Below are positions 24,216-42,319 of a stretch of 49,305 nucleotides of DNA, in pieces; positions within the stretch are counted from its first letter, which is position 1; each line of letters starts with the position of its first letter. This stretch comes from Pseudomonadota bacterium (GTDB taxonomy: Bacteria > Pseudomonadota > Alphaproteobacteria > Rhodobacterales > Rhodobacteraceae): assembly GCA_027623875.1 (NCBI GenBank), contig JAQBUS010000001.1:1-49305 (forward strand), read 5' to 3'. The translations under genes and the position numbers were made by a program. The notes beneath the pieces were generated by a model. It did not search any database and was not told where the DNA came from. It saw only the letters and a list, made by a program, of their open reading frames with translations.

Positions 24216-24219
24216 ATGC

Positions 24220-24229
24220 TATATTACAC
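24220..24229 (-). promoter_or_regulatory. GTGTAATATA motif (copy 1 of 3), candidate -10-type promoter element
   Basis: Minus strand reads agtGTGTAATATAgcatATG. TAATAT ends 5 nt before the ATG at 24215. Confidence 0.3.
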
Positions 24230-24235
24230 TATATA

Positions 24236-24648: not shown

Positions 24649-24717
24649 TTATTGCGAAATTAACTGGTTAATGTAATCTCTGTTACCATGAAAACCAAAA
24701 CAATCATGGCGAACTTG
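24649..24717 (-). pseudogene. orphan duplicate of the 3' end of the DUF5672-like gene
   Basis: Reads QVRHDCFGFHGNRDYINQLISQ*, compared with the intact C-terminus QVRHDCFGFHGNKDYIGSCVI* of ORF 25536..26213. There is no upstream ORF in this frame. Confidence 0.6.
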
Positions 24718-25531
24718 CAATTAAGTCGCTTCTAATGAAGGCCGTTTCAAGAATTTTTTTATCAATGAGTTCTTGGCATGCGGGATTACAAATGAAACTA
24801 TCAGAGTCTCCAAAAAGATATCTTTCCGAAGCTAAAGATTTATGAGATTGATACGCTTTTGCTGGGTAATTAACTAAACTGCCTTCCCAATTCGGAAACC
24901 AATTATAAAATTCTTCTGTAGCTACGACATGAATTAATTCATAACCAAAAGATTGTATTTTTTTGATATATTTTACAGTATCTTCTGCAGTGTAATCACA
25001 ATCATATTCCCAATGATTCCCTGAGTATTTCGAGCTAGCCAACCAGTGATGCCATCCAACGAGAAGTTGATCAACATTTAAGTTAGACAGGGATTCAAAA
25101 ATTTCAAACTCGCTACCCTCTATGTCCATTTTTAAAACAGAGGTATTTGGGTATTTTTCTAATACATCATGAATATTAACAGCATCAAACTTGGGGTTAT
25201 TTTGATCCACGCATAATGCGGAGATTGCGGGACCACCAAAATTAACTTTTTTAAGGCTTGAACCTACAACAGCTTTCTCTTCGTAAATAAACCTATTTTG
25301 CATATGAGGCAAATCCTTCAACCTATTGTATGTGTCCCTAGAGACCTCGGTAGGGTCGAAGCCAACAACCTTAACGGTGTCATTTAGTTTTAGCATTTCC
25401 CCGTCAAAAGAAAAGTCATCTCTAAGACCCATCGATAAAATGTAAGAATTATCCCTAACTCTTGAAGCGTCCATTATTAATGAAGCGCCATTATCTACGC
25501 CAATAAAAGATAAATTAATTTTACTATTCAT
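24704..25531 (-). CDS. FkbM-family methyltransferase
   Basis: 275 aa. VLKMDIEGSEFEIFESL is the FkbM signature (D-I/V-E-G-x-E). The last 5 codons are read out of frame from the duplicated DUF5672 tail. Confidence 0.6.
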   Translation of the reverse strand: MNSKINLSFIGVDNGASLIMDASRVRDNSYILSMGLRDDFSFDGEMLKLNDTVKVVGFDPTEVSRDTYNRLKDLPHMQNRFIYEEKAVVGSSLKKVNFGGPAISALCVDQNNPKFDAVNIHDVLEKYPNTSVLKMDIEGSEFEIFESLSNLNVDQLLVGWHHWLASSKYSGNHWEYDCDYTAEDTVKYIKKIQSFGYELIHVVATEEFYNWFPNWEGSLVNYPAKAYQSHKSLASERYLFGDSDSFICNPACQELIDKKILETAFIRSDLIASSP

Positions 25532-25535
25532 AATG

Positions 25536-26213
25536 TTATATTACACAAGATCCAATGTAATCCTTGTTGCCGTGAAAACCAAAACAATCATGGCGAACTT
25601 GCCCCCAATCATCCTTGGAGAATTTATTAGCAAGCTCTATGGGCGCGTATTTTATTCCATGACTAATAAAATATTCATAATTATTTAAGCAATAGTATAC
25701 GTCTTCGGGACCTATTAATTCCTTAGGGCACTGAGCAGCAAGCTCTAAGATTTTTCTACTCCTAAGGGAGAATCCCCCATTGCCGACAAAGTTAGGTATA
25801 CTAGAAGTAACTTCCGGCTCCAACCACTGAGACCCCTGAAGGATGAAGTCGGGCCAAACGGCGCCTATATAATCATAGTCCAAAAACTCGTTCGTCCAAA
25901 GCTCGGGATGATGGACAAAGCCATCGGTTTGAACTATAAGAACATAATCAGTATCGATAAATTTATATAATTCATTAACAATAAATTCATTGTATCCATT
26001 GTTCCCCCTTCCTTGTTGGTGGATGTTGTGATTGAACTTTTCAACTTCCACATATTCTATACCATCCAAGGACTCATTAGGCTTTTCAAAAGAAATTAAT
26101 TTAACTTGGTCAAAGTCTATTTCACCCATGCAGACCCGAAGAAGCTTTGTGCAAATATTGGGGTCCACCCCATCAATTGTTGCAAGAGTTACATCTTTTA
26201 ATTTAGAACTCAT
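25536..26213 (-). CDS. DUF5672-like protein (putative glycan-modifying enzyme)
   Basis: 225 aa. YDYIGAVW...GNGGFSLRSRK pattern, recalled from the DUF5672 family. Not verified by search. Confidence 0.35.
   Translation of the reverse strand: MSSKLKDVTLATIDGVDPNICTKLLRVCMGEIDFDQVKLISFEKPNESLDGIEYVEVEKFNHNIHQQGRGNNGYNEFIVNELYKFIDTDYVLIVQTDGFVHHPELWTNEFLDYDYIGAVWPDFILQGSQWLEPEVTSSIPNFVGNGGFSLRSRKILELAAQCPKELIGPEDVYYCLNNYEYFISHGIKYAPIELANKFSKDDWGQVRHDCFGFHGNKDYIGSCVI
25537..25546 (-). promoter_or_regulatory. GTGTAATATA motif (copy 2 of 3)
   Basis: Minus strand reads cttGTGTAATATAacattATG. TAATAT ends 6 nt before the ATG at 25531. Confidence 0.3.
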
Positions 26214-26215
26214 TA

Positions 26216-28180
26216 TTAAGAATCAGGAATACAGGCAATGCATTCGCCGGGAGGTGAGTCTAAGAATATATACCCAAGGTTTGACAGTTCATCCATGAAG
26301 CTTTTTAATTTAGCGGTAACCCCACTAAAGGCTCCATCGCTATGCTCAGATTCAAATTGTATATATTTAATTTTATATTTACTAAAATCCACGCTCCTTA
26401 AGATATCTATATCGTACCCTTCAGTGTCAATATACAATCTATCTATTACTTCTAGATTATATTCTTCGAGAAGTCGGTTGATATTAATAGCCGGAGCATC
26501 AAAACTCTCGACATCATCTTCGAGATGGTTGTGGTCTAGCAAGTGTTGTCTGTTGACAGATGTATGTTGCCCATTGGTTTCTTTAGGGCTAAAATAAAGA
26601 GTTAACTTGTCAGCCTCCTCCACCGTAATTGCCTTGTTGACTAGCTCAATGTTAACATCTACGCCCTCATAAACACTGACACAATTTGCAATCTTTGTTG
26701 AATTTGGATCAACTAGTATAGCTAATTCTATCTCTGAAGCATTGTTTATGATGAAATCTTTTACGGAATCAAGAAGATCGCAGTCGTTGCATCCTATTTG
26801 TACTATGTTCATCTTGTCAGCCTCCTCCACCGTAATTGCCTTGTTGGCTGGCTCAATGTTAGCATCTTTTTTTTGTAAAATAATGGTTAAGCTATCTGGA
26901 TTGGTGTAAAATATGCCACAAAATTTTGAATCATCAATTCTGTTTTTCTTTATATTTTCAACAAATATATTAAGAAAGCCATCGTCTTTAAGGGCGTCAC
27001 AATGAACGTCTTCTATTATGTAAAATCCATTTGATTTGACATGTTTATATAAAACATCGAAAGATTTAAGCTGATCTTTGGTTGCATGACTGCCGTCATC
27101 AATAATGATGTCAAATTCATTATCATAATCTTGACAAATATCAAGCAAAACATTTTCATCCGATTGATTGCCTTCACGAAGGTCTATTCTGCCGAGATCT
27201 TTAATTAATTCCCATCCGCCACCTTCGACTCCAAGTTTTAAATTTCTATTAACGATGTCAGGATTAATATCTAAACCAACTATTTTTGCATTTGAAAAGT
27301 AATCAGCAAAAGCCAAAAGGGAAGCCCCTTTTGCTATGCCAAGTTCAAATATTTTTATAGAGTCATGCCTAAGAGGATCAAGAAAATAGGAATACACCTC
27401 AGAGTATAAATGACCCCCTCCGCAGTGATGATCGAAAAAATTTGTACCCTTATCCGTCTTATATTTGTCGCAAATTTCCGTTAAAGATAGGTCTTCGTTA
27501 ATTCGCTCCCAATTCACAAGGGGGGATTGATAAGGTTCGTGAAGATGACTTGAGTAACCGGGAATAGGCACCCAAAGCCTGATATTTAAATCGGTATATA
27601 AAAATCTGAAAAAATCTCTATCCATTAAGCCGAAACTAATGGCGTATTCTTTTATTTTTTCAAAAATCAATTTAGTGCAGGCCCAAGTGCAAGTTGTAGA
27701 CTCTGAGGTTCTCCAGTGAGAGGATTCGGTTAATTGAATTTCCTCTTTACCCTTAGTTATGTCATCTTCGCGAGTATATCTGTCCGGATGATCGTAGAGA
27801 GTGATCAAACCAAATGCCGCCAAGCCTTCAACTAGTATTTTACCAGCTCCTTTTTTGTGAGAATAATCATCTTCCACAAAATATACGCTGTCAAAAGAAA
27901 GGTCTGAAGCTAAAGATAAACAATGCATTAAGCTGTTGTGATTGTTTTTGAAATTGACTCTATGAAGTTTGACAAAAGAAAAAGATTCTATATGTGTTAA
28001 ATAATCACAATCATCTCCATCAAAAACAACATGGAATTCAGCGTTGTCAAGCTCTTCAAAAACATTAGAAACTAAGAGGTCAAAATTCCTAACTTTAGAA
28101 AAGTAAGAAGGCCTTGCGTCTTTAAAAAGAGGACTCTCAAGCTCCGCGTTGCATGTTCTAAATAAAATTACATTTTTCAT
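26216..28180 (-). CDS. three-domain enzyme: GT2-like glycosyltransferase + class I SAM methyltransferase + FkbM-type methyltransferase
   Basis: N-terminal domain has VYFVEDDY (DxD). Middle domain has KYKTDKGT...IFELGIAKGASLLAFADYF...IIDDGSH. C-terminal domain has IVQIGCNDCD...YIDTEGYDIDIL. The ATG at 28180 is preceded by GGAGGTGAAA; the track start at 28192 is the TTG overlapping that SD. Confidence 0.6.
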   Translation of the reverse strand: MKNVILFRTCNAELESPLFKDARPSYFSKVRNFDLLVSNVFEELDNAEFHVVFDGDDCDYLTHIESFSFVKLHRVNFKNNHNSLMHCLSLASDLSFDSVYFVEDDYSHKKGAGKILVEGLAAFGLITLYDHPDRYTREDDITKGKEEIQLTESSHWRTSESTTCTWACTKLIFEKIKEYAISFGLMDRDFFRFLYTDLNIRLWVPIPGYSSHLHEPYQSPLVNWERINEDLSLTEICDKYKTDKGTNFFDHHCGGGHLYSEVYSYFLDPLRHDSIKIFELGIAKGASLLAFADYFSNAKIVGLDINPDIVNRNLKLGVEGGGWELIKDLGRIDLREGNQSDENVLLDICQDYDNEFDIIIDDGSHATKDQLKSFDVLYKHVKSNGFYIIEDVHCDALKDDGFLNIFVENIKKNRIDDSKFCGIFYTNPDSLTIILQKKDANIEPANKAITVEEADKMNIVQIGCNDCDLLDSVKDFIINNASEIELAILVDPNSTKIANCVSVYEGVDVNIELVNKAITVEEADKLTLYFSPKETNGQHTSVNRQHLLDHNHLEDDVESFDAPAININRLLEEYNLEVIDRLYIDTEGYDIDILRSVDFSKYKIKYIQFESEHSDGAFSGVTAKLKSFMDELSNLGYIFLDSPPGECIACIPDS

Positions 28181-28182
28181 TT

Positions 28183-29178
28183 TCACCTCCAATAAGAATA
28201 TATTCCTTTGTTTATCTCGTAGTTCATGGTTTTAAGCTCTCTCTTGGGTTGATCTTTCGCCCAATTAAACATTTTATCCACTAAGGAGTCTAAGTTGGTT
28301 TCATCTTTAAAGCTCAAGAAATTCTTAGCCTTATCGTGATTGCAGTATGCATCCTTTACCTCGAGCCTGGCCTCTGCATGCTCAATTGTATTTGAGTATC
28401 CATACTTCTCCCCCGTTTTTCTTACGATTTCAGCCACCTCATTAAGCGACCAGTGTTTGTCAGCTCCAATATTAAAAATTTCTTCGTCATGACCATCGAT
28501 CAATTGGTAGAAAGGCTCCATGTAATAGTCGATATCTGAAAAAGCTCTAGTCTGCTCACCATCTCCATATACTAATATGGGTTCTCTATCTAAAGTCCTA
28601 CGAATAAAGATTCCAATGACATTTCTATATTTATCCCAAATGTTTTGATAAATACCCAAAACGTTATGCGGGCGGATGATGTTATATCTTAGTCCAAATT
28701 GAACGCCGGCTTGTTTAATGTCCATTTCTACAGCGTATTTAGCTATGCCATAGGGGTCACAGGGTGTGGGAGTGAGGTCTTCCGTAAAAGGCGGGACGCT
28801 GCAACCATATACAGCCATAGTGGAAGTGAAAATTAATTTACAATCAAATTCAACACAATTATTTATAACATTGACCGAGGATATGATATTGTTTTGGTAA
28901 TTGAAGCGCCTTACGAACGGTGACAACCCTTCGGCTGCATAAGCGGCAAAGTGATACACCGCATAAGGTTTATGTTTTTTAAATAAATCTTTCAATCTTT
29001 CGTGATCTTCATCCAGAGACAAATGATGAAATGAAAATTTTTCATGATTGGGTGTATAATCTAAATACCCCCCAAAAAGATTGTCTATACCAATGACTCT
29101 ATATCCTTTGTTTAGTAAAAATCTAGAGTAATGGTTACCCAATAAGCCCGCACAGCCAGTTACAAATATAGTTTTCAT
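28183..29178 (-). CDS. NAD-dependent sugar epimerase/dehydratase (extended SDR)
   Basis: VTGCAGLLGNH (GxxGxxG) and YGIAKYAVE (YxxxK). The ATG at 29178 forms an ATGA overlap with the upstream gene; the track start at 29199 is TTG. Confidence 0.75.
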   Translation of the reverse strand: MKTIFVTGCAGLLGNHYSRFLLNKGYRVIGIDNLFGGYLDYTPNHEKFSFHHLSLDEDHERLKDLFKKHKPYAVYHFAAYAAEGLSPFVRRFNYQNNIISSVNVINNCVEFDCKLIFTSTMAVYGCSVPPFTEDLTPTPCDPYGIAKYAVEMDIKQAGVQFGLRYNIIRPHNVLGIYQNIWDKYRNVIGIFIRRTLDREPILVYGDGEQTRAFSDIDYYMEPFYQLIDGHDEEIFNIGADKHWSLNEVAEIVRKTGEKYGYSNTIEHAEARLEVKDAYCNHDKAKNFLSFKDETNLDSLVDKMFNWAKDQPKRELKTMNYEINKGIYSYWR

Positions 29179-29864
29179 TTTGAAAGAAACATTAAACAAT
29201 CACGGAAACCGTCCGGTGTGATGTCTTGGTACAAGTTAAAGGGGCTGTTTCTGAAAATTTTACCAATGGTTTCCATGTCATTCCAATACCAACCACCGAA
29301 AACTTCAGTTTCTCGGTATTTATCCTGAAGATCACAATCACTCATTAAAGATTTTTCATTATCAAAATGCCGAGAAGAATATTTGAAATGCCGATGAAAA
29401 TCAGCAAACATAATTAATCCCGTACCGCCAGGCTTTAGTTTATCGTATATGGAATTTATATATGTCTGAAGTCCAGAATTTGGAAAATGACAAAAAACCC
29501 CAAAAGAAAAAACAAAATCTACAGAATTGTCTTCTACCCCCGTGCAGTTGTAATCCCTATCTCCAAGTTCTATATACTTTACATTAATAGGGGGATCCTT
29601 TAGTAAATTGATAGTCTCTCTAGGAAGAATATCCAGAGCTACAACTCGGCCAAAATTTGGAGCTAAAAATTCTCTTGTCCACATGCCCGATCCGCAACCT
29701 ATCTCTAAGCAGCTGCTCTCTGAGTTATAATGCTTGGAGAGTTCAGAGATAATCTGATCTTTATGTTCCGCTTTATAGGCGGAGAAATCCTCAATAAAAC
29801 CTGTGGTTCCCCAGGCGCCAATGAATTCTTGCTTGCTTAGTCCGCTCAATTTGTTTTCAATCAT
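29175..29864 (-). CDS. class I SAM-dependent methyltransferase
   Basis: Motif I is CLEIGCGSGMWT, followed by VVALDI. Confidence 0.7.
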   Translation of the reverse strand: MIENKLSGLSKQEFIGAWGTTGFIEDFSAYKAEHKDQIISELSKHYNSESSCLEIGCGSGMWTREFLAPNFGRVVALDILPRETINLLKDPPINVKYIELGDRDYNCTGVEDNSVDFVFSFGVFCHFPNSGLQTYINSIYDKLKPGGTGLIMFADFHRHFKYSSRHFDNEKSLMSDCDLQDKYRETEVFGGWYWNDMETIGKIFRNSPFNLYQDITPDGFRDCLMFLSK

Positions 29865-29884
29865 TTTATTTATTTATTTATTTA
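29865..29884. repeat. (TTTA)5 microsatellite
   Basis: Five perfect tetranucleotide units between the ATG of ORF 29175..29864 and the last codons of ORF 29874..30719, covering that ORF's stop codon. Confidence 0.9.
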
Positions 29885-30719: not shown

Positions 30720-30723
30720 ATTG

Positions 30724-31614: not shown

Positions 31615-31656
31615 ATTAAAAAATTCCTTTGTAGCTGATGCGCTTTTGTTGACGAT

Positions 31657-36127: not shown

Positions 36128-37097
36128 TTATGAAAACTTCCTTAAATTTATTCATGGAGTTTTCTGGGGAAAAATGTTCGGAGTATGCGTCCCAGTTTTT
36201 TTCTGGCTGCGGAGTAAAATTTAACATTATGTCTTTCGCTTCTTTTTGATCTCCATAATACAAACCTTTATCTCCAAGCATATTTATATGTGCCCTATCT
36301 CCACTTCCGTTCCACGTTATGATGGGTTTGTTTTTAATTGAAAACTCTGCAACAGACAAACCAAATGATTCCCCCTGACCTCTCGCATGGATCATTCCGT
36401 CACAAGTATTTATAAATTTAGAAATCCATTCTTTATCCATTGTCGCTGGAAAGTGTTTTACTCTTGAGTGCTCTTCCATGAATTCATATGTATATAAAAA
36501 AAGGAAGTATATGTCGTCTCTTTCATTTAAAACCTGTTTAATTGCATTATGCACAAACTCTAAATCAAATGTTTCAGGCCCACCAGTCCTACCAAGTACT
36601 ACTGCGTCAGGAGGGATTCCTAATTCTTCTCTAAGGTTTTCGCTTACATCTGGTAGGGTGACTATATATGGAACGAAGGGATGCTTGCCTCCGTCCATCG
36701 TCTTGCTCAACCATTCTGATATATAAGCATAAACATCTCCATGTGGATCGCAAATTTGAAAAACACTATGGACGCAAGTTTTTATGTCTTTGGAAAATAA
36801 ACCATCATTGCCCCCAGCTTTTTGCATATAAAGCATGTCGATTTCCTCCCCCTTAAGAAAGGCTTCTGCTTCTGCCCAGCTATTGTAGCGGTAAACTGGG
36901 AAGCGGCTGCCAAAATATTCTTGAGCTAGTGGATGCTCATAGAGAGTTCCCCTGTGGTCCCCTTTGCCAGTATTAAGCGGCCCCGCCAAAATATAGGATT
37001 TATTATTTAGGAGTTTCTCGTTGAAGTGAGCGTATTTGAAAGTTGCTCCTTCCGAACCTCTAACATTTAATTCGTTTACGTGAAAAGCTATTTTCAT
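36120..37097 (-). CDS. GT-B fold (GT4-like) glycosyltransferase
   Basis: ARGQGESFGLSVAEFSIKNKPIITW fits the E-x7-E motif region. Confidence 0.5.
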   Translation of the reverse strand: MKIAFHVNELNVRGSEGATFKYAHFNEKLLNNKSYILAGPLNTGKGDHRGTLYEHPLAQEYFGSRFPVYRYNSWAEAEAFLKGEEIDMLYMQKAGGNDGLFSKDIKTCVHSVFQICDPHGDVYAYISEWLSKTMDGGKHPFVPYIVTLPDVSENLREELGIPPDAVVLGRTGGPETFDLEFVHNAIKQVLNERDDIYFLFLYTYEFMEEHSRVKHFPATMDKEWISKFINTCDGMIHARGQGESFGLSVAEFSIKNKPIITWNGSGDRAHINMLGDKGLYYGDQKEAKDIMLNFTPQPEKNWDAYSEHFSPENSMNKFKEVFING

Positions 37098-39610
37098 GAT
37101 ATAGGGTCATCAAAATGATGGTTGCCATCTCCACAATGTTGAATGTTTGATCCAAATACCTCCCTAGAACCTTGCGTTCCCGGCATGTCGAGGTAATAAT
37201 AAATGTTCAATTCGTTTTTTTGATCTCCAATAAAATTATCAAGGGGTCCACTAACTCCCTTGCTTCTAACTATCTCCATCATCTTATTAGCCCCCTTAAG
37301 GTTTAATGCGTAAGCCCAGTTACCTATAAACCAAGTAGCTGTAAATTTTCCAAAATGGTCATTGACGCTATCTCCACCAGAGTGCGCGGCAATTTGAACT
37401 AAGTCCCAATCCTCAGGGAGTTGACTCCAAGATTTAGAAATTCTCTCAACGGCATCATCATTAAAGACTACATCATCCTCAAGGATTAAAGTTGTTTCTA
37501 TATTCTCTTCGACGATTTTTTTCCAAATTGCAATATTACTTAGTATGACCCCGTATTCACTATTACTAAGAGTTAAAGTGTCTCCAATGTCCGGCCTAGT
37601 GTAAGTAGGTTTAATGGCTGGAACAAATTCCATGAGTTCAGGACGGATTGTAGACGCAGAGAACCTATCCACGTCAATACTTTTAGCAACACAGGAACCT
37701 TTGACGCTTTCCCACCTATCGGGCCTTTTGTCAAGATTTATACAATAAGCTTTATTGAACGGAAGTTCGTTGCTGTCTTTGACCTTTTTTTTATATACCC
37801 AACTATTGTCTTGGAAAATATCTATAGGCTCTGACTTGAAGAATCTTCTTATAGCTTCCGTTTGGGAACGCCCGGTTCCTCCGAGCTCTCCGAAGCCCCA
37901 GTCATGACCGCACATATAACCATCGCATTTTAGTTTGGGGTTGTAAAGGTTTAAATATCTTTCGTTAGCTTCATAAGTATGTTCTCCATCCAAGTAAACT
38001 AAATCGACGGAATCGTCAGGAATTAACTCAAAGGCTCTTTCCGCAGTCATTTTCAACTTTACAACCTTATCCCCAAACCTGCCAACCCTGTCATCAAAAG
38101 ACTTCTCAACAAACTCCATTGGAGCTTTGTAAGAACTTTCATCCGAAGAATCATAATCGTTTTCCCAAGGATCTATACAGTATATTTTATCTACATTTCC
38201 AGTTTGCAGAAATATCTCTGTAGATTCACCCATATAGCAACCTATTTCAATAATTGTTGAATTTGGTTTGATGTATTTTTCGCTTAATTCCCTTAGTCCA
38301 TCTATGAGGAAACCATGAGTGCTCTTAGGCCTTTGTAGAATTTTATCTAAGTTTACTTCTCCATTCTCATCTAAGACGAAATCTGCAAAACCTTCCTTTG
38401 AATCAGGGGGATTAACTTTTTGACCAGTATCTTCTATAGCTTCAGCTGGAAGTAGATTGGATTTATATCTATTTAGGACTTCTAGTTCTTGAGCTTTTAA
38501 TTGAGTATTACCTCCAGTGCCTTCAGGGATGCAGAACTTAATGCTTTTGTATTCGACTGGTAAATTTGCCTGTATGTAGCATTTGTCTATTAAATCACTT
38601 ACATTATGAATCTGCCTTCCGTAGTTGCCTAGCGCAAGAAGGCTCGTTTTACTCAAGTCGTAATCTTTGGCGTAGGAATCCACTCCATCTTCATCGCCAA
38701 CTAAAATCTTAAATTCTAAATTATCCAAATCAGAAAGGCAATACTTAATTAGATTCAAATTTGACTCTCTAACCGCAAAAATTATCTTCTTGCCTGTCTC
38801 GTGGAGATGGCGAATCATTCCGTTAAGCGGCATTTGATCGTCGATAGAAAGGTGCGACTGAATGAATATTTCGTCTTTATCCAAGAAGTTATCATCAACT
38901 AATACCTCAGAAGCAAAAACTCTGTCCCCAACAAAACCTCCATACTTAAGGGGCTCGTGAGGCGGAAAATCATTCTCTTGACCGTGCTCCATATAGTCAT
39001 CAGAGAAACAGTTGTACATAATCTCACTTAGGAAGTTTTGGTCGTCAAAATACGTTGCCCTACCAGAACCCCAGCCACCTTCAAGGTTGTCTTGATCTAT
39101 TGAAGCGTAGTTTTTACTTTTAAAGAAGGAAATTAATTCTTCAGTAAAATCAAACTTATCCGTCTTTTTAATGCCCCACATGCCAGCCATGATTTTATGA
39201 AAATGACCTTGTGAGCAATCATGCATGAAGTGTAAGGTTTTGTCTGAGTTTATCCATTCATCAACAGCAACTTTCTCGCGAGAGTTCACAACCGAGTCGG
39301 AATCTCTTTGTATGCAAACATCAACATTAGGGTCATCGCAAGCTAAGATGCGCCAATATATTGGAGGAGAGGGGAGGTCTGGCACGATAACTTCACAATC
39401 CAACTCTTTAAGCTTCTCTAGATTAGGAACATCTTTTGTACAGTAAAATCGACATATCCATCCCGGATAGATCTCCTTAGCTTCTTTAATGTTTAATTCT
39501 GCCCCAAGATAATACAAGGGCTTTTCGCCATAAATCGAAAAACTAATGATCTTTTTATTAGATCCATCTTTTAGCTTTTCGTAAAAAACTGGAAAAGGGC
39601 TACTACTCAT
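37094..39610 (-). CDS. three-domain enzyme: DxD glycosyltransferase-like module + class I SAM methyltransferase + GT25 glycosyltransferase
   Basis: 838 aa. N-terminal module is a paralog of ORF 29874..30719. Middle domain has IIEIGCYMGESTEIF...VYLDGEHTYEANERYL. C-terminal domain has FNKAYCINLDKRPDRWESV...SNSEYGVILSNIAIWKKIV...LILEDDVVF (GT25 pattern). Confidence 0.6.
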   Translation of the reverse strand: MSSSPFPVFYEKLKDGSNKKIISFSIYGEKPLYYLGAELNIKEAKEIYPGWICRFYCTKDVPNLEKLKELDCEVIVPDLPSPPIYWRILACDDPNVDVCIQRDSDSVVNSREKVAVDEWINSDKTLHFMHDCSQGHFHKIMAGMWGIKKTDKFDFTEELISFFKSKNYASIDQDNLEGGWGSGRATYFDDQNFLSEIMYNCFSDDYMEHGQENDFPPHEPLKYGGFVGDRVFASEVLVDDNFLDKDEIFIQSHLSIDDQMPLNGMIRHLHETGKKIIFAVRESNLNLIKYCLSDLDNLEFKILVGDEDGVDSYAKDYDLSKTSLLALGNYGRQIHNVSDLIDKCYIQANLPVEYKSIKFCIPEGTGGNTQLKAQELEVLNRYKSNLLPAEAIEDTGQKVNPPDSKEGFADFVLDENGEVNLDKILQRPKSTHGFLIDGLRELSEKYIKPNSTIIEIGCYMGESTEIFLQTGNVDKIYCIDPWENDYDSSDESSYKAPMEFVEKSFDDRVGRFGDKVVKLKMTAERAFELIPDDSVDLVYLDGEHTYEANERYLNLYNPKLKCDGYMCGHDWGFGELGGTGRSQTEAIRRFFKSEPIDIFQDNSWVYKKKVKDSNELPFNKAYCINLDKRPDRWESVKGSCVAKSIDVDRFSASTIRPELMEFVPAIKPTYTRPDIGDTLTLSNSEYGVILSNIAIWKKIVEENIETTLILEDDVVFNDDAVERISKSWSQLPEDWDLVQIAAHSGGDSVNDHFGKFTATWFIGNWAYALNLKGANKMMEIVRSKGVSGPLDNFIGDQKNELNIYYYLDMPGTQGSREVFGSNIQHCGDGNHHFDDPIS

Positions 39611-40733
39611 CGCTGAAAACTATATCCGTACATTGATCTTCTCCGGCAACGCAAAGCCAGTGAGGATGATTGCCTTCCTCAAAGTCAAAATCAGCCTCCT
39701 GTTTGAAGGTTTCTTCCCTTGCGTATAAGACTCTCTTGTCTAATCTAGGAGCAAAGATTTTAGGAGGAGTTTCCCTTCCTTTTGCCAAGTTGCAAGCCCA
39801 CCAGCTGAAAGATGAGTTAGCCCTAAAAATACTTCTGGCGAAATATAACCTAAGAAAGTCCGGGAGCCAATCAAATATAATATCGGGAACAACTTCCGAA
39901 CCTACTGGATAGTGCCATCCACCCCTTTTGTATTGATGCTTTTCTTTAATCCAATTTCCAGTTCTATCGTCAGTAGTCCATTCAATTTCCTTCGAATCAT
40001 AACCGTACTTTTCAAAAGCCTTTAAGTATGAGCTTTCAGCTACCACAGAATAACCTCCGTTATCTTTATAGTTTACGTCTGAAATGTCGTCTCTCCTTAG
40101 GTGAGCTATATCGTAAGTGCCCTGCTTGTCCTCCAGTCTTTTATAGACGTCTAGATTTTTAACCTCATCTTTAAATTCATACAAACTATGAACATCTGAG
40201 ATTTTCATTTTTTCAAATATACTAGTGTGGTAAGCACTGACACTATCTATGCAGACGTCTTGACCAAAGTCGGTGTAGTTTTCATTTGGATTATCTGCAT
40301 TTACATACTTGAAGTCAAAGTCACTTCTAGAGCTAAACTCATTAATTTTAGTCATTCTATAGTCTATTTCATCAAATGGTTTTGTGGACTGATTAATGTG
40401 TAATCTTAATTCGTCGTCATAAATTACCTTATGATTCAAGTTGAATAATTGGTCCCCCTCCCACTCCGAAGGGAGATACAGAGTTCCATTAAACATCTTA
40501 GCTCTCTCGTGTGCGTAAGCATATGTATGCATGCGATTTCCAAATCTTCCGTTCCAGTGCATTATTAATACATCTTGACCATTTTTGCCTCGGTTTTTAC
40601 CCTTAGACTTAAATGGAGGAATCTCTTCTGGAATGTCGGAAAAGTCAGCCTCGACAATTTCGTTCACTATCTCCTTGCTGGATTTAATGGATTGCCTAGG
40701 GCTTTTTTTACTCTTTCTTGATTTGGCAGTCAT
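39603..40733 (-). CDS. GT11/POFUT-superfamily fucosyltransferase-like protein
   Basis: WNGRFGNRMHTYAYAHERAK resembles the G-G-L-G-N-Q-x-F-x-Y-A motif, and YDIAHLRRDDI resembles H-V-R-R-G-D-Y. Basic N-terminal tail. 1-nt gap after the recA-like gene. Confidence 0.45.
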   Translation of the reverse strand: MTAKSRKSKKSPRQSIKSSKEIVNEIVEADFSDIPEEIPPFKSKGKNRGKNGQDVLIMHWNGRFGNRMHTYAYAHERAKMFNGTLYLPSEWEGDQLFNLNHKVIYDDELRLHINQSTKPFDEIDYRMTKINEFSSRSDFDFKYVNADNPNENYTDFGQDVCIDSVSAYHTSIFEKMKISDVHSLYEFKDEVKNLDVYKRLEDKQGTYDIAHLRRDDISDVNYKDNGGYSVVAESSYLKAFEKYGYDSKEIEWTTDDRTGNWIKEKHQYKRGGWHYPVGSEVVPDIIFDWLPDFLRLYFARSIFRANSSFSWWACNLAKGRETPPKIFAPRLDKRVLYAREETFKQEADFDFEEGNHPHWLCVAGEDQCTDIVFSDE

Positions 40734-40734
40734 G

Positions 40735-41841
40735 CTAATTTAATTTTATAATTTCTTCTTTTACATAATTATAAAGAAAGTCTTTCATTTTTCTATTACC
40801 TTCTAAGAAATCCAATAGTTTTTGCTCTCCTTGGAATTTATCTGGGCATTCTATGCCTTTCTTGGATAGCTTGTTTATCATTTCTTCGTCAATAGATAGC
40901 CAAGGGCCTTTCTGTTCGATGTAACCCCAGGCCTTCATTAAGTCTATTATCTCTCTTTCTACCCAAACGGACTCTCCGTTTTTTCTACCATACTTAATTG
41001 GATATCTTACTTGAGCGCCAGTTTTTTCATTAACGCTTTTGCGGAAACGAATTTTGCAATAATGACCTATTGGGTCGCCCTTGTCATCTATTCTGGTTGC
41101 CGAGGGATTCGTGAACATTATATCTCCAGTGTACCTCTCCTCGAATTCGCATATGAAATTTGCGTAATGCTTTACTGCATTTCCACCCGCCTGCTTTACT
41201 TTTGGGCCACCTCTTGAGGCGTAAGGATTTGTAGCAACCTCAATTCTTACTTGAGAGGTCAATATGAGCATGTGTCCCATTTTCGTCAAGGGGAGAATCA
41301 CCTTCTTTAAGAAAACAGATGTTATTAGGGCTCCGCCAGCTACTTGCTCGCTCTCTTCGAACGGTTTATTGAAATCGTTTACCCTGCATAATGCATCCAT
41401 GCTGTCAATAATAAATAAATACTTTTTCTTTTCAGAGTTATTGTGTATTAATTCTCTAATAAGTTCAAAAACTTTTTCGTATACATTACAGTCGAACTTG
41501 AAAAAACTTTCTGGATCGGTATTTACACCACACCTGTTTAAGAGCTCAGGAGATAGCCTACCTTCGCTTTTGACGTATACAACCATCCCTCCCCCCTTAA
41601 AGTGGTCTTGGAAGTGTTTTGCCACCGTTAAGGCGCAGCTAGTCTTCCCTCCCTCATTTACACCGGTAAATCTATGAGCCCCGGGAGTGAACCCTCCATT
41701 TAGGGCCAAGTCTAAATTCAAACTGCCAGTCGGTATCTTGTAATGAAAATCCTCATGATTGTTATAATGATATTTTACATTATCCTTGTCGTTAAGGAAT
41801 TTTTCTATTTGCTGTTTAGATGCAGAAGGTTCTTTAGCCAT
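40735..41841 (-). CDS. recA: RecA/UvsX-family recombinase
   Basis: GSLNLDLALNGGFTPGAHRFTGVNEGGKTS (Walker A) and LFIIDSMDAL (Walker B). The ATG at 41841 lies 6 nt after a -10 box; the track start at 41859 is a TTG inside the promoter spacer. Confidence 0.7.
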   Translation of the reverse strand: MAKEPSASKQQIEKFLNDKDNVKYHYNNHEDFHYKIPTGSLNLDLALNGGFTPGAHRFTGVNEGGKTSCALTVAKHFQDHFKGGGMVVYVKSEGRLSPELLNRCGVNTDPESFFKFDCNVYEKVFELIRELIHNNSEKKKYLFIIDSMDALCRVNDFNKPFEESEQVAGGALITSVFLKKVILPLTKMGHMLILTSQVRIEVATNPYASRGGPKVKQAGGNAVKHYANFICEFEERYTGDIMFTNPSATRIDDKGDPIGHYCKIRFRKSVNEKTGAQVRYPIKYGRKNGESVWVEREIIDLMKAWGYIEQKGPWLSIDEEMINKLSKKGIECPDKFQGEQKLLDFLEGNRKMKDFLYNYVKEEIIKLN

Positions 41842-41847
41842 ACAAGT

Positions 41848-41876
41848 ATCATAAACCAAGACGACATAGAAGTCAA
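41848..41876 (-). promoter_or_regulatory. sigma70-type promoter TTGACT-17nt-TATGAT
   Basis: Minus strand reads gagTTGACTtctatgtcgtcttggttTATGATacttgtATG. The TGA of the -35 box is the stop codon of ORF 41873..42283. Confidence 0.65.
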
Positions 41877-42290: not shown

Positions 42291-42319
42291 ATTCTAACAT
42301 ATTAATTTAAAAATGTCAA
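42291..42319 (-). promoter_or_regulatory. sigma70-type promoter TTGACA-17nt-TAGAAT
   Basis: Minus strand reads ataTTGACAtttttaaattaatatgtTAGAATtactaacATG. The TGA of the -35 box is the stop codon of the 1699-aa ORF. Confidence 0.65.

What the first reader, a model, noticed from the sequence alone, without database searches (positions are those of the whole stretch)
24704..41876. A ~16-kb phage-encoded nucleotide-sugar, glycosyltransferase and methyltransferase operon, transcribed together with a recA-like gene
From the promoter at 41848-41876, sixteen consecutive minus-strand genes follow with overlaps or gaps of 9 nt or less. The only larger gap is 42 nt (31615-31656).

After the RecA-like gene they encode:
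- A UDP-galactopyranose mutase, a GMD/RMD-type dehydratase-reductase and a second extended SDR.
- Up to nine glycosyltransferase-like domains: GT10-like, GT11/POFUT-like, GT25, GT4-like, GT2-like, exostosin-like, a possible GT9-like, and two paralogous DxD modules.
- At least six methyltransferase domains: two FkbM, two to three TylF/Methyltransf_24-like, and class I.

This predicts autonomous synthesis of a methylated glycan containing 6-deoxyhexose and galactofuranose. That density is known from giant eukaryotic viruses (chloroviruses, mimiviruses). Here it sits among bacterial-type replication genes (DnaB, DnaE, tmRNA). Two enzymes are three-domain fusions (GT+MT+MT and GT+MT+GT), which suggests an assembly line. 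Placing recA at the head of a glycan operon is also odd.
Basis: partly seen in the sequence, partly recalled or inferred. Interest (0 to 1): 0.85.

Follow-up and report, generated by a model that had tools for sequence, protein, structure and literature searches.

The report
Variable sugar-coat gene island in jumbo phage
An uncultured ~200-kb freshwater phage carries a 16-kb block of 15 sugar-building, sugar-transferring and sugar-methylating genes at a spot that is empty or differently filled in its relatives; it probably decorates the phage's own giant mucin-like protein, although similar clusters are already known in cyanophages.

Summary
Sixteen tightly packed minus-strand genes (41841 to 24704) run from a RecA/UvsX-like recombinase through 15 glycan genes. 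Five glycosyltransferase (GT) domains are solid, two are weak and three ORFs or domains are unassigned. Five methyltransferase domains pass Pfam cut-offs and one falls just below. There is also a UDP-galactopyranose mutase (UGM), a GDP-mannose-dehydratase-like (GMD-like) 4,6-dehydratase and a second SDR.

The block is native to the contig. Its composition matches the backbone, and the contig was assembled independently in several samples. At least 43 IMG/VR contigs (up to 211 kb) share the backbone.

The new result is comparative. In 30 related loci recA abuts a conserved 136-aa gene. In 14 loci a "type-1" island of 2.9-16 kb sits there, and the window has the largest. In 4 loci an unrelated GT60/GT92/sulfotransferase island sits there. 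This explains "recA heading a glycan operon".

A 97%-identical strain switches cassettes at a domain linker. No island protein has a membrane segment. Type-1 islands co-occur with giant Pro/Thr/Ser-rich ORFs just upstream (1699 aa here).

Best reading: cytoplasmic O-glycosylation of phage proteins. Remodelling of host lipo-oligosaccharide (LOS) or LPS is not excluded.

The kind is not new. Cyanophage S-SRM01 has a similar fucose/GT25/FkbM cluster. I rate this a new variant of a known kind.

The parts
41848..41876 (-). Promoter-like site TTGACT-N17-TATGAT, ending 6 nt before the recA ATG (leaderless-type)
   Evidence: The same architecture stands before recA in L004, L005, L008 and L009, which all carry islands, and in no empty-site locus.
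40735..41841 (-). RecA/UvsX-like recombinase. This is a conserved backbone gene and the upstream anchor of the island.
   Evidence: Pfam RecA 53.5 bits. phrog_97 at 1.4e-33. 66-78% identical in at least 43 IMG/VR contigs.
39603..40733 (-). g02: GT-B glycosyltransferase of the fucosyltransferase superfamily (GT11/GT23/GT37/GT65-like) with a Lys-rich N-terminal tail. It is core gene 1 of all type-1 islands.
   Evidence: - The AlphaFold model has pLDDT 83.
- All top-50 PDB Foldseek hits are NodZ, AtFUT1, FUT8 or POFUT1, down to E 3e-6.
- Viral fucosyltransferases match in BFVD.
- Motifs HWNGRFGNRMHTY, AHLRRDD and FRANSSFSWWA are invariant.
- One homologue carries Pfam Glyco_transf_11.
37094..39610 (-). 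g03: 838-aa four-domain enzyme, core gene 2 of type-1 islands.
- GT-A module with a D103-S-D105 motif: residues 1-240, nt 38891-39610.
- alpha/beta domain: residues about 245-400.
- Methyltransf_24: residues 454-571, nt 37898-38251.
- GT25: residues 619-838, nt 37097-37756.
   Evidence: - Pfam.
- The model of residues 1-440 has pLDDT 89 and gives GT-A hits to glycogenin, K4CP and COLGALT1.
- Homologues keep the N-module and swap the C-terminal partner: GT25, GT2, FkbM, GT10 or a GT4-like domain.
- The strain-level recombination breakpoint is at nt 37787, which is the linker between the methyltransferase and GT25 domains.
36120..37097 (-). g04: probable GT-B (GT4-like) glycosyltransferase. Support is weak.
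   Evidence: phrog_2170 glycosyltransferase at 4.4e-4. Glycos_transf_1 at E 0.084. WbaZ-1 at E 0.25. 79% identical copies occur in L004 and L007.
35261..36127 (-). g05: GT10 (alpha-1,3/4-fucosyltransferase family) glycosyltransferase
   Evidence: Pfam Glyco_transf_10, 50.4 bits against a cut-off of 23.9.
34287..35264 (-). g06: GMD-like NDP-hexose 4,6-dehydratase (extended SDR)
   Evidence: - GDP_Man_Dehyd 197 bits.
- TIGR01472 gmd scores 119 bits, below the equivalog cut-off of 415.
- The sequence has the STSE and YGASK motifs.
- It is 89-91% identical in L004, L008 and L011.
33259..34290 (-). g07: 343-aa protein, exostosin/GT47-like only by a sub-threshold match
   Evidence: Exostosin_GT47 at E 0.031, 14 bits against a cut-off of 33. 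No PDB match. A 79% identical copy occurs in L011.
32277..33269 (-). g08: UDP-galactopyranose mutase family flavoenzyme
   Evidence: Pfam GLF 160 bits plus NAD_binding_8. TIGR00031 scores 250 bits, just under the cut-off of 303.75. It is 34-38% identical to annotated phage UGMs.
31657..32280 (-). g09: TylF/Methyltransf_24-type (sugar) O-methyltransferase
   Evidence: TylF 31 bits and Methyltransf_24 30.7 bits, both above their cut-offs.
30724..31614 (-). g10: unassigned 296-aa protein from a conserved family of about 235-aa metagenomic proteins. It is preceded by the only long gap in the run (42 nt).
   Evidence: It has 106 homologues, none with a Pfam domain. Profile searches against PDB and Pfam are negative. 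The only hint is a weak C-terminal motif match to the g02 family (hhalign E 0.017, probability 2.7%).
29874..30719 (-). g11: stand-alone paralogue of the g03 GT-A N-module
   Evidence: BLASTP against g03 residues 19-210 gives E 3e-10 at 24% identity. It aligns within A3, where R/D-x-D is invariant.
29175..29864 (-). g12: class I SAM methyltransferase
   Evidence: Methyltransf_23, _25 and _11 at 46-51 bits.
28183..29178 (-). g13: extended SDR, epimerase/reductase type rather than a dehydratase
   Evidence: Epimerase 134 bits. The best NCBIfam match is GalE at 120 bits, and GDP-fucose synthase scores 41 bits; all are below their cut-offs. The motif is STMAVYG, which lacks the dehydratase Glu (this reading is an inference).
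26216..28180 (-). g14: 654-aa three-domain fusion.
- GT-A-like N-domain: residues 1-270.
- Class I methyltransferase: residues 276-397, sub-threshold.
- FkbM methyltransferase: residues 444-642.
   Evidence: - FkbM 45.7 bits. Methyltransf_24 24.7 bits, below its cut-off of 26.3.
- The N-domain family has 1003 representatives and a consensus of DG...EDDY.
- 4 of 28 homologues hit GT2.
- The match to PDB glycosyltransferase 6p61 has E 0.43.
25536..26213 (-). g15: DUF5672 protein, function unknown
   Evidence: Pfam DUF5672, 74.6 bits. A 60% identical copy lies in the L004 island.
24704..25531 (-). g16: weak FkbM-like methyltransferase, the last island gene
   Evidence: PF05050 23.1 bits against a cut-off of 22.7. 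TIGR01444 23.6 bits, below its cut-off of 37.7.
23955..24646 (-). Conserved 136-aa and 86-aa backbone genes. They are the downstream anchor of the island and probably lie in the same transcription unit.
   Evidence: They lie 0-23 nt after recA in 30 related loci. No promoter of the genome's class stands before them in any locus.
23921..23949 (-). dnaB promoter TTGACT-N17-TAAGAT, 8 nt before the ATG. It is the likely start of the next transcription unit.
   Evidence: It is conserved in 36 of 46 loci.
42316..47415 (-). Giant 1699-aa ORF, the candidate glycan acceptor. It is 27% Ser+Thr and 8.7% Pro. Cys-bounded modules are separated by long SVSPS/TPTVSVSPT tracts.
   Evidence: - Composition.
- It has 15 Pro/Thr/Ser-rich segments totalling 427 residues.
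- Its high GC comes from amino-acid composition: GC3 is 0.364.
- No homologue is found in relatives beyond strain level.
- Length varies between strains, 1798 aa in L070.
41873..42283 (-). Conserved 136-aa ORF between the giant ORF and recA, with its own promoter at 42319-42291

Best explanation
**What it is**
- The 16-kb block is a hypervariable glycan-synthesis island.
- It sits at a fixed insertion site, between recA/uvsX and a conserved 136-aa gene.
- That site lies in the replication module of an uncultured, widespread aquatic jumbo-phage lineage with contigs up to about 211 kb.

**How I think it works**
- The island is transcribed with recA from a leaderless-type promoter. All of its products are soluble cytoplasmic enzymes.
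- Three enzymes convert host GDP-hexose and UDP-galactose into a 6-deoxyhexose (fucose- or rhamnose-type) donor and UDP-galactofuranose. They are the GMD-like dehydratase, a second SDR and a UGM-family mutase.
- Two core enzymes occur in every type-1 island: a fucosyltransferase-fold GT-B (g02) and a GT-A module fused to exchangeable catalytic domains (g03). I propose they start the glycan directly on an acceptor.
- The accessory glycosyltransferases (GT10, GT25, the GT-A paralogue and the weak GT4-, GT47- and GT2-like proteins) extend it.
- Five or six methyltransferase domains (TylF/Methyltransf_24, FkbM, class I) O-methylate it.

**Most likely acceptor.** Ser/Thr in the Pro/Thr/Ser-rich linkers of the phage's own giant ORF(s), encoded two genes upstream. 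This would give a strain-specific, mucin-like glycoprotein.

**Shown here:** gene content, folds, solubility, island variability, recombination at domain linkers, and co-occurrence with Pro/Thr/Ser-rich ORFs.

**Inferred:** sugar identities, order of steps, the acceptor, and any virion association.
For: **The block is native and viral**
- Island and backbone match in GC (0.366 vs 0.362), GC3 (0.345 vs 0.350), codon frequencies (r 0.935) and tetranucleotides (r 0.933, against 0.953 within the backbone).
- The same contig was assembled in ENA and in two Logan runs.
- At least 43 IMG/VR contigs have RecA 66-78% identical.
- No relative was found in 185,579 species genomes.
- UvsX, polymerase-exonuclease, DnaE, DnaB and primase are all strongly divergent from cellular versions.

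**The island is variable**
- The recA-to-anchor distance is 0-23 bp in 30 loci and 2.9-16.1 kb in 14 type-1 loci.
- Four loci carry an unrelated island with 2x PF11397 (GT60-type GlcNAc transferase), a sulfotransferase, GT10, GT92, GT31 and GT25.
- L068 is 97% identical to the window up to nt 37787, which is the linker between the methyltransferase and GT25 domains. After that it is mosaic.
- The g03 N-module has at least 6 alternative fusion partners.

**Enzymology.**

**Cytoplasmic, non-lipid route**
- No island protein reaches a Kyte-Doolittle 19-residue window average of 1.6.
- There is no phosphoglycosyltransferase, Wzx, Wzy or ABC exporter.

**Acceptor**
- The giant ORF is 27% Ser+Thr and has 427 residues of Pro/Thr/Ser-rich tract.
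- Such tracts lie upstream of recA in 11 of 12 type-1 loci that have at least 3.9 kb of flank, and in 0 of 30 empty-site loci.
- Type-1 islands fall in two separate RecA clades, both with these tracts, with empty-site clades between them.
- The unrelated type-2 island begins with two genes of the PF11397 family. From my own knowledge, that family holds cytoplasmic polypeptide GlcNAc transferases.
- A bacterial homologue of g02 lies beside a large ORF with 135 residues of TPTSP tract.
Against: - No experiment and no virion proteome exist. The giant ORF has no recognisable structural-protein domain. It lies among replication and nucleotide-metabolism genes, not in a structural module.
- Co-transcription with recA and dnaB neighbours suggests early or middle expression. 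That timing suits host-surface or DNA modification at least as well.
- GT25 and HtrL_YibB are classic lipo-oligosaccharide (LOS)/LPS-core families, as is LicD (seen in relatives), and such enzymes also need no membrane segments.
- PT-rich linkers are common in unglycosylated multidomain proteins.
- The co-occurrence statistic is confounded by phylogeny. It uses an arbitrary threshold and 10-kb flanks. It fails for L007 and for three of the four type-2 loci.
- Some empty-site phages still carry a GT-like gene upstream of recA.
- Five ORFs or domains (g04, g07, g10, g14-N, g15) are weakly assigned or unassigned.
Confidence: 0.5

Rival explanations
1. **Host-envelope remodelling.** The soluble glycosyltransferases and methyltransferases act at the inner face of the host membrane on lipid A-core (LOS-type), on undecaprenyl-linked intermediates, or on a host surface glycoprotein. 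They change the cell surface early in infection, for example for superinfection exclusion, blocking other phages or predators, or preventing re-adsorption of progeny. The host's own MsbA or Wzx exports the product.
For: - GT25 is the Lic2B/LgtB LOS galactosyltransferase family.
- Relatives' islands carry HtrL_YibB, LicD and a cytidylyltransferase.
- LOS-type assembly needs no phage flippase or polymerase, so the lack of membrane proteins is compatible.
- The island sits in an early/middle-looking replication operon.
- This was the published interpretation for P-SSM2's 24 "LPS" genes (PMC1079782).
- Serotype-like cassette switching is what surface-antigen loci do.
Against: - It does not explain why type-1 islands track giant Pro/Thr/Ser-rich phage ORFs.
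- It does not explain why the alternative island begins with two genes of a family I know as polypeptide GlcNAc transferases.
- The GT families present (GT10, GT11/23/65-like, GT25, GT47-like, GT60, GT92, GT31) are those typical of protein and Golgi-type glycosylation.
- No lipid-linked initiating enzyme is present.
- There is no evidence of lysogeny in this lineage: no relative was found in 185,579 genomes.
Confidence: 0.3
2. **DNA hypermodification.** The island glycosylates, and methylates the sugars on, modified bases in phage DNA, as T4 and other phages glucosylate or arabinosylate hydroxymethyl-pyrimidines. This would protect the genome from host nucleases.
For: - The island lies between recombinase and helicase in the replication module and is probably co-transcribed with them.
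- A nucleoside deoxyribosyltransferase-like gene, NUDIX and a GMP-reductase-like gene are nearby.
- All the enzymes are soluble.
Against: - Up to ten glycosyltransferase-like domains, UGM, GT10/GT25-type enzymes and five or six sugar-type O-methyltransferases far exceed any known DNA glycosylation system.
- No hydroxymethylase/thymidylate-synthase-like gene and no T4 a-gt/b-gt-like gene appear in the 49 kb.
- The site is empty in most relatives that have the same replication genes.
Confidence: 0.04
3. **Not a phage feature.** The block is host O-antigen/capsule DNA joined by mis-assembly, or the whole contig is part of a bacterial genome (it has been binned into a Bacteriovoracaceae MAG).
For: - NCBI names near-identical proteins "MAG... 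[Bacteriovoracaceae bacterium]".
- The window also encodes tmRNA, ClpB, DnaE, DnaB and RecA, which are housekeeping functions in bacteria.
Against: - There is no compositional break at 24.7 or 41.9 kb.
- The same junctions occur in independent assemblies and in relatives from lakes and the Tara ocean samples.
- The replication proteins score far below cellular orthologues (RecA 53 bits, DnaB 37 bits) and match phage families.
- Every called gene of the 49 kb lies on one strand.
- At least 43 relatives are IMG/VR viral contigs of up to 211 kb, and none is in 185,579 species genomes.
- There is no Wzx, Wzy or phosphoglycosyltransferase.
Confidence: 0.03

Closest known systems
Glycan gene cluster of Synechococcus phage S-SRM01 (MW015081.1, about 191.6-205.0 kb; cultured freshwater T4-like cyanophage, 240.8 kb)
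   Same: - It is a run of about 17 adjacent co-directional genes annotated as GT25, two alpha-1,2-fucosyltransferases, a NodZ-type fucosyltransferase, two GT2-like genes, an FkbM methyltransferase, GMD and GDP-fucose synthase.
- It also holds a 226-aa homologue (34% identity) of the g03 GT-A N-module.
- The fucose-centred chemistry is the same, and it is also a freshwater large phage.
   Different: - S-SRM01 also encodes an NDP-sugar synthase and a SIS-domain enzyme, so it is more self-sufficient.
- Its genes are single-domain rather than fused.
- It has no UGM and no TylF-type methyltransferases.
- Its cluster sits among photosynthesis auxiliary genes (psbA, hli), not between recA and dnaB.
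- Its phage backbone is unrelated (T4-like).
- Variability, the acceptor and any link to Pro/Thr/Ser-rich ORFs were not examined here.
"LPS" gene clusters of Prochlorococcus myovirus P-SSM2 (Sullivan et al. 2005, PMC1079782)
   Same: [quoted passage not shown] That is a large, strain-variable glycan gene set in a lytic aquatic phage.
   Different: - The authors interpreted it as host LPS alteration.
- No sequence comparison with P-SSM2 was made here, and its clusters were not checked for domain fusions or Pro/Thr/Ser-rich partner ORFs.
- The backbone and insertion sites are different.
Chlorovirus PBCV-1 capsid glycosylation (three-domain A064R; viral GMD) and Mimivirus fibril glycosylation
   Same: - Virus-encoded soluble glycosyltransferases work in the cytoplasm without the host ER/Golgi or lipid carriers.
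- One polypeptide combines two glycosyltransferase domains with a sugar methyltransferase.
- The virus has its own GMD-type enzyme.
- The glycans contain methylated 6-deoxyhexoses.
- The GT families are "eukaryote-like".
- The nearest viral structural neighbours of g02 include giant-virus fucosyltransferases.
   Different: - The hosts are eukaryotes.
- The acceptor there is the major capsid protein (N-linked) or fibril proteins.
- Homology of g03 or g14 to A064R was not tested.
- Here the backbone is bacterial-phage type, with a tmRNA and leaderless sigma-70-like promoters.
Mycobacteriophage virion O-glycosylation operons (Che8, Corndog and Myrna type; from my own knowledge)
   Same: These are tailed phages that encode glycosyltransferases, and in some cases methyltransferases, which O-glycosylate their own structural proteins on C-terminal Ser/Thr-rich stretches in the cytoplasm.
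   Different: - Those operons have only 2-6 genes, sit next to the structural genes, and have no nucleotide-sugar pathway enzymes.
- There the acceptors are the capsid and tail-tube subunits. Here the proposed acceptor is a giant non-homologous ORF, and virion association is unproven.
Bacterial O-antigen, capsule and LOS outer-core loci
   Same: - They have mosaic, serotype-like cassette variation at a fixed chromosomal site between conserved flanking genes.
- They mix NDP-sugar enzymes, glycosyltransferases and modifying enzymes.
- GT25, LicD and HtrL-type genes are shared.
   Different: The island has no initiating phosphoglycosyltransferase, no Wzx/Wzy or Wzm/Wzt, and no membrane protein at all. 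It is carried by a virus, and recombination occurs at domain linkers inside fusion proteins.

Membership tests
Phage-borne glycan-biosynthesis gene cluster (auxiliary "LPS/glycan" clusters such as those of S-SRM01 and P-SSM2) | Located on a bona fide phage genome, not on host DNA | tested here: met
   - Composition is uniform.
- Independent assemblies exist.
- At least 43 related IMG/VR contigs were found.
- Replication proteins are phage-type.
- No relative occurs in 185,579 cellular genomes.
- No capsid or terminase gene lies in the stretches seen, so the viral assignment rests on these indirect lines.
Phage-borne glycan-biosynthesis gene cluster (auxiliary "LPS/glycan" clusters such as those of S-SRM01 and P-SSM2) | Several adjacent nucleotide-sugar-modifying enzymes plus several glycosyltransferases | tested here: met
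   There are three NDP-sugar enzymes (g06, g08, g13), five solid glycosyltransferase domains (g02, g03-N, g03-C, g05, g11) and five methyltransferase domains above Pfam cut-offs.
Viral self-glycosylation machinery (PBCV-1 A064R type, Mimivirus fibrils, mycobacteriophage virion glycosylation) | Virus-encoded soluble glycosyltransferases with no lipid-carrier or export components | tested here: met
   The highest 19-residue Kyte-Doolittle average is below 1.6 for all 15 island proteins. No phosphoglycosyltransferase, Wzx, Wzy or ABC family appears in the Pfam scans.
Viral self-glycosylation machinery (PBCV-1 A064R type, Mimivirus fibrils, mycobacteriophage virion glycosylation) | Multidomain polypeptides that join glycosyltransferase and sugar-methyltransferase domains | tested here: met
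   g03 is GT-A + alpha/beta domain + Methyltransf_24 + GT25. g14 is a GT-A-like domain + class I methyltransferase + FkbM.
Viral self-glycosylation machinery (PBCV-1 A064R type, Mimivirus fibrils, mycobacteriophage virion glycosylation) | The glycan is covalently attached to a virus-encoded (virion) protein | not testable with these tools
   Support is only indirect: a Pro/Thr/Ser-rich giant ORF lies two genes upstream and co-occurs with type-1 islands. Glycoproteomics is needed.
Viral self-glycosylation machinery (PBCV-1 A064R type, Mimivirus fibrils, mycobacteriophage virion glycosylation) | Sequence or structural homology of the fusion enzymes to A064R or to the mycobacteriophage glycosyltransferases | not tested
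   No reference sequences were at hand. The BFVD search was run only for g02 and returned giant-virus and phage fucosyltransferases.
Bacterial O-antigen/capsule locus (Wzx/Wzy- or ABC-dependent) | Initiating phosphoglycosyltransferase (WbaP/WecA type) | tested here: not met
   No such Pfam or NCBIfam match and no membrane segment was found.
Bacterial O-antigen/capsule locus (Wzx/Wzy- or ABC-dependent) | Flippase plus polymerase, or an ABC exporter | tested here: not met
   No polytopic membrane protein is encoded between 24704 and 41841.
LOS-type outer-core glycosyltransferase set (Lic2/Lgt/LicD) | Peripheral glycosyltransferases of the GT25 or related families that act directly on lipid A-core | tested here: inconclusive
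   A GT25 domain is present. LicD, cytidylyltransferase and HtrL occur in relatives' islands. The acceptor cannot be determined from sequence.
Phage DNA glycosylation systems (T4 a-gt/b-gt and related hypermodification) | A pyrimidine hydroxymethylase (or other base-modifying enzyme) plus a DNA glycosyltransferase | tested here: inconclusive
   None was found in the 49-kb window. Only about a quarter of a roughly 205-kb genome is visible.
UDP-galactopyranose mutase (Glf) | Score above the curated equivalog threshold | tested here: inconclusive
   Pfam GLF scores 160 bits, well above its cut-off of 26.3. TIGR00031 scores 250.4 bits, below its cut-off of 303.75, and the protein is 330 aa against a 378-position model. 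It belongs to the family, but the substrate (UDP-Gal or another NDP-pyranose) is not fixed.
GDP-mannose 4,6-dehydratase (Gmd) | Equivalog-level score and catalytic Thr/Glu and YxxxK residues | tested here: inconclusive
   TIGR01472 scores 118.9 bits against a cut-off of 415. STSE and YGASK are present in the sequence. It is a 4,6-dehydratase-type SDR, but the nucleotide and sugar specificity is unproven.

The most novel reading that the evidence does not exclude
- A cosmopolitan lineage of aquatic jumbo phages makes a mucin-like "glycocalyx". Giant, fast-evolving Pro/Thr/Ser-rich proteins are O-glycosylated in the bacterial cytoplasm by a phage-encoded assembly line that uses eukaryote-like glycosyltransferase families.
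- The glycan structure is diversified like a serotype. Whole cassettes are gained and lost, and catalytic domains are swapped by recombination at the linkers of fusion enzymes.
- This would be a bacterial-virus counterpart of Mimivirus fibrils and chlorovirus capsid glycans. It would also be a natural library of soluble, modular protein-O-glycosylation enzymes.
Probability: 0.35. Interest if true: 0.8.

Novelty: new variant of a known kind. Interest (0 to 1): 0.6.

Why it matters
- If the acceptor is the phage's own giant Pro/Thr/Ser-rich protein, tailed phages would join giant eukaryotic viruses in building complex, methylated glycans on their own proteins without any membrane machinery. Glycan type would then become a strain-level variable trait of phage particles, relevant to adsorption, grazing, aggregation and immune or defence evasion.
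- The island also gives a compact, naturally shuffled set of soluble glycosyltransferase and methyltransferase modules. Their domain-boundary recombination points are already mapped, which is useful for glyco-engineering.
- If instead the target is the host envelope, this is an unusually large and variable surface-remodelling cassette in a lytic jumbo phage.
- Either way, the fixed site between recA and the 136-aa gene is a clean natural experiment, with empty, 2-gene and 15-gene states. It lets the open question of what phage "LPS" clusters are for be tested by comparison.

Tried and rejected
- **Megablast of the 17-kb block against 50,697 phage records:** no match.
- **tblastn against the same collection:** no match for the giant ORF or for g02.
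- **Single-sequence IMG/VR scan with RecA:** nothing. The alignment-based scan worked.
- **phmmer of five Pfam-less ORFs against PDB:** nothing usable.
- **Profile searches of the g02, g10 and g14-N families against PDB:** negative or E > 0.4.
- **NCBIfam on the unassigned ORFs:** nothing.
- **Pfam at E <= 10:** only sub-threshold GT1 and exostosin hints.
- **hhalign of the g14-N family against the g03 N-module:** no relation. hhalign of g10 against the g02 family gave only a weak motif match. The "GT9-like" label for g10 therefore stays unsupported.
- **PHROGs on ORFs upstream of recA in relatives:** this found ribonucleotide reductase and galactosyltransferase-like genes but no structural proteins. 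I could not show that the giant ORF is a virion protein.
- **Generic promoter and terminator scan:** at chance level. I replaced it with the genome-specific motif analysis.
- **Literature:** full-text search and most paper look-ups failed or timed out, and two ids were not held. Only PMC1079782 could be read. Comparisons with PBCV-1, Mimivirus and mycobacteriophages therefore rest on my own knowledge.
- **Considered and rejected:** chimeric assembly or host O-antigen DNA, and a bacterial-chromosome origin despite the Bacteriovoracaceae MAG label (see rivals).

Full report
**1. The observation**

Every ORF of at least 100 aa that looks real lies on the minus strand of the window. I used the starts that an independent gene caller chose on the same contig. 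With those starts, the run from the RecA-like gene (40735-41841) to 24704-25531 has gaps of 1, -8, -4, -8, -4, -4, -11, -4, 42, 4, 9, -4, 2, 2 and 4 nt.

Pfam confirms the following:
- RecA
- GT25 plus Methyltransf_24 in the 838-aa protein
- GT10
- a GDP_Man_Dehyd-type SDR
- UDP-galactopyranose mutase (UGM)
- TylF/Methyltransf_24
- a class I methyltransferase
- a second SDR
- FkbM, plus a sub-threshold class I methyltransferase, in the 654-aa protein
- DUF5672
- a borderline FkbM

**2. ORFs without Pfam hits**

- *g02, the 376-aa ORF (39603-40733).*
  - I modelled it from 32 homologues (pLDDT 83).
  - All 50 best PDB matches are fucosyltransferases of the NodZ/FUT8/AtFUT1/POFUT1 fold, with the best E at 3e-6.
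  - In the viral structure library it matches giant-virus and phage fucosyltransferases.
- *g03, residues 1-440 of the 838-aa protein.* The model has pLDDT 89. It shows a GT-A domain with an invariant R-D-x-D, followed by a second alpha/beta domain.
- *g11, the 281-aa ORF.* It is a paralogue of that GT-A module (E 3e-10).
  - GT4-like g04.
  - Exostosin-like g07 (E 0.03).
  - GT2-like N-domain of g14.
- *g10.* It belongs to a family of about 235-aa metagenomic proteins with no assignable fold.

The overall count is:
- five solid glycosyltransferase (GT) domains
- two weak GT domains
- three unassigned ORFs or domains (g10, g14-N, g15)
- five methyltransferase domains above their cut-offs, and one below

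**3. Promoter and operon limits**

A generic sigma-70 scan is at chance level. The genome does, however, have its own clear promoter class: TTGAC[AT]-N17-TAnnnT ending 4-8 nt before a start codon.
- There are ten matches on the minus strand, one on the plus strand and 2.5 +/- 1.5 in shuffles.
- Six of the ten stand directly before annotated starts, and one stands before the tmRNA.
- The dnaB copy is conserved in 36 of 46 related loci.
- The recA copy occurs only in island-bearing relatives.
- None ever precedes the conserved 136-aa gene downstream of the island.

No terminator-like site lies at either end of the block. The likely transcription unit therefore runs from recA through the island and two small conserved genes, down to 23955. 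Read-through from the promoter at 42319 is possible.

**4. Is it really phage DNA?**

- Island and backbone are indistinguishable in GC, GC3, codon usage and tetranucleotides.
- The contig was assembled independently in one ENA and two Logan data sets.
- The replication proteins are far from cellular orthologues and match phage families: UvsX phrog_97 and the polymerase exonuclease phrog_192.
- An alignment-based scan found at least 43 IMG/VR contigs, up to 211 kb, with RecA 66-78% identical.
- ENA, JGI and NCBI contigs of 154-208 kb share the same synteny.
- No relative occurs in 185,579 bacterial and archaeal species genomes.
- A near-identical contig has been binned into an NCBI "Bacteriovoracaceae" MAG. 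I treat that as binning, at most a host hint.
- No capsid or terminase gene lies in the stretches I could see. This is the main gap in the viral assignment.

**5. The comparative result**

I measured the distance from the end of recA to the conserved 136-aa gene in every locus.

| State of the site | Loci | Size |
|---|---|---|
| Empty | 30 | 0-23 bp |
| Type-1, core only (g02 + g03 N-module fusion) | 8 | 2.9-3.5 kb |
| Type-1, intermediate | L005, L008, L007, L004, L011 | 4.5, 7.3, 10.3, 11.0 and >10 kb |
| Type-1, the window (largest seen) | 1 | 16.1 kb |
| Type-2, unrelated content | 4 | 5.8-9.6 kb |

The type-2 island carries two PF11397 GlcNAc-transferase genes, a sulfotransferase, GT10, GT92, GT31, GT25 and HtrL.

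So the glycan genes are a variable island dropped into a conserved recA operon.

The variation reaches strain level. L068 is 97% identical to the window from 42004 to 37787, and nt 37787 falls in the linker between the methyltransferase and GT25 domains of g03. Beyond that point L068 is mosaic:
- a g04-like domain is fused in place of the GT25 domain
- the GMD-like (GDP-mannose-dehydratase-like) gene is kept at 96.9% identity but relocated
- other genes are only 72-75% identical

Across the protein database, the g03 N-module is joined to at least six different C-terminal partners.

**6. Mechanism**

*Solubility and starting materials.* No island protein has a membrane-spanning segment. There is no nucleotidyltransferase, initiating phosphoglycosyltransferase, flippase, polymerase or exporter. 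The pathway must therefore start from host NDP-sugars and build on an acceptor that is accessible in the cytoplasm.

*Sugar chemistry.*
- The GMD-like enzyme has the dehydratase Thr/Glu and YxxxK motifs. The second SDR lacks the Glu.
- Two fucosyltransferase-type glycosyltransferases are also present.
- Together these point to a GDP-6-deoxyhexose branch.
- The UGM-family enzyme points to a furanose donor.
- TylF and FkbM methyltransferases point to O-methylated sugars.
- None of these sugar identities is proven, because the equivalog thresholds are not met.

*Acceptor.* Two genes upstream lies a 1699-aa ORF that is 27% Ser+Thr and 8.7% Pro. It has 427 residues of SVSPS/TPTVSVSPT tracts between Cys-bounded modules.
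- Pro/Thr/Ser-rich giant ORFs occupy this position in 11 of 12 type-1 loci with enough flank, and in none of the 30 empty-site loci.
- On a RecA tree the type-1 loci form two separate clades, with empty-site clades between them.
- These ORFs share no detectable homology between relatives and vary in length between strains.
- I therefore favour cytoplasmic O-glycosylation of these phage proteins, with confidence of about 0.5 for the whole model.

*Caveats.*
- The co-occurrence test is phylogenetically confounded and depends on a threshold.
- The giant ORF has no recognisable structural domain.
- The region is otherwise devoted to replication and nucleotide metabolism.
- The likely expression timing is early or middle.

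**7. Rivals**

- *Host LOS/LPS or other envelope remodelling* remains a serious alternative (about 0.3). GT25, HtrL and LicD are LOS-type families, and LOS assembly needs no phage-encoded membrane proteins.
- *DNA glycosylation* is unlikely (about 0.04).
- *Mis-assembly or a bacterial origin* is essentially excluded (about 0.03).

**8. Comparison with known systems**

The cultured freshwater cyanophage S-SRM01 has an analogous run of about 17 genes. It includes GT25, three fucosyltransferases, GT2-like genes, FkbM, GMD, GDP-fucose synthase and a homologue of the g03 N-module. P-SSM2 has 24 "LPS" genes that its sister phage lacks. UGM is annotated in 88 phage records.

To my knowledge the following are new. 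The literature tools were mostly unavailable, so this judgement is limited.
- The fixed hot-spot with empty, minimal and expanded states, and two unrelated island types.
- The two-gene conserved core.
- The multidomain fusions with recombination at domain linkers.
- The association with giant Pro/Thr/Ser-rich ORFs.
- An uncultured, cosmopolitan jumbo-phage backbone.

**9. Verdict**

- I rate this a new variant of a known kind, with interest 0.6.

Noticed in passing
window 42319-42291, 41876-41848, 23949-23921, 18975-18947, 16700-16672, 9760-9732, 10263-10235: - This is a genome-specific promoter class, TTGAC[AT]-N17-TAnnnT.
- It is placed 4-8 nt before start codons, which implies leaderless or near-leaderless mRNAs. 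One copy lies about 23 nt before the tmRNA.
- It has 10 minus-strand matches, 1 plus-strand match and 2.5 +/- 1.5 in shuffles.
- The dnaB copy is conserved in 36 of 46 related loci.
- Only 7 of 41 genes have a Shine-Dalgarno-like core.
   Followed up: partly
window 9777-10211 (-): A phage-encoded tmRNA with tag peptide EDATALYEAEELPMAA. ARAGORN calls it and Rfam RF00023 scores 130.7 bits. It lies next to a ClpB-like AAA+ chaperone at 10243-12732. Relatives also carry an HSP20.
   Followed up: partly
window 16747-18942 (-): A 731-aa ORF with bacterial thrombospondin type-3 (calcium-binding) repeats, a hydrophobic N-terminus and locally raised GC (0.47). It sits between the polymerase genes and the nuclease/primase genes. 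Its function is unknown.
   Followed up: no
window 34287-35264 compared with L004, L008, L011 and L068: The GMD-like gene is 89-91% identical at protein level in relatives whose RecA is only about 77% identical. In strain L068 it stays 96.9% identical at nucleotide level while sitting at a different position in the island. This suggests exchange between phages or unusually strong constraint.
   Followed up: partly
window 40580-40733 (N-terminus of g02) and alignment A2: The core fucosyltransferase-fold enzyme carries a Lys-rich, low-confidence N-terminal tail. Its length varies from about 30 to about 200 residues among relatives. The role is unknown; targeting or tethering are possibilities.
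   Followed up: no
L073 (1.36-Mb contig, GC 0.40) and L074 (GCA_003703975.1, 0.82-Mb contig, GC 0.60): Cellular homologues of g02 (49-51% identical) lie beside three paralogous 750-900-aa ORFs without Pfam domains, plus a roughly 340-aa ORF. One of the large ORFs has 135 residues of TPTSP tract. This may be a cellular counterpart of the enzyme-plus-large-acceptor pairing.
   Followed up: partly
whole window; NCBI proteins MFT6546485.1, MFT6546488.1, MFT6546459.1: Near-identical proteins are deposited as part of a "Bacteriovoracaceae bacterium" MAG. This is either mis-binning of a phage contig or a hint at a low-GC predatory-bacterium host.
   Followed up: partly
L021:11067-20721, also L014, L018 and L027: - At the same recA site, some relatives carry a completely different island.
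- Its families are typical of eukaryotic glycosylation: two PF11397 GlcNAc-transferase genes, Sulfotransfer_2, GT10, GT92, GT31, GT25 and HtrL_YibB.
- A sulfotransferase suggests a sulfated glycan.
   Followed up: partly
window 7852-8865, 9184-9723, 19723-20142, 3923-4543: The backbone carries GMP-reductase/IMPDH-family, nucleoside 2-deoxyribosyltransferase-like, NUDIX and archaeal-type Holliday-junction-resolvase-like genes. This is nucleotide-pool remodelling of the kind seen in large phages.
   Followed up: no
L019:8332-9618 and L015:8190-9629: A galactosyltransferase-like gene (phrog_1721) lies just upstream of the 136-aa ORF and recA, in an empty-site relative and in a type-1 relative. 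Empty-site phages are therefore not free of glycosyltransferases.
   Followed up: no
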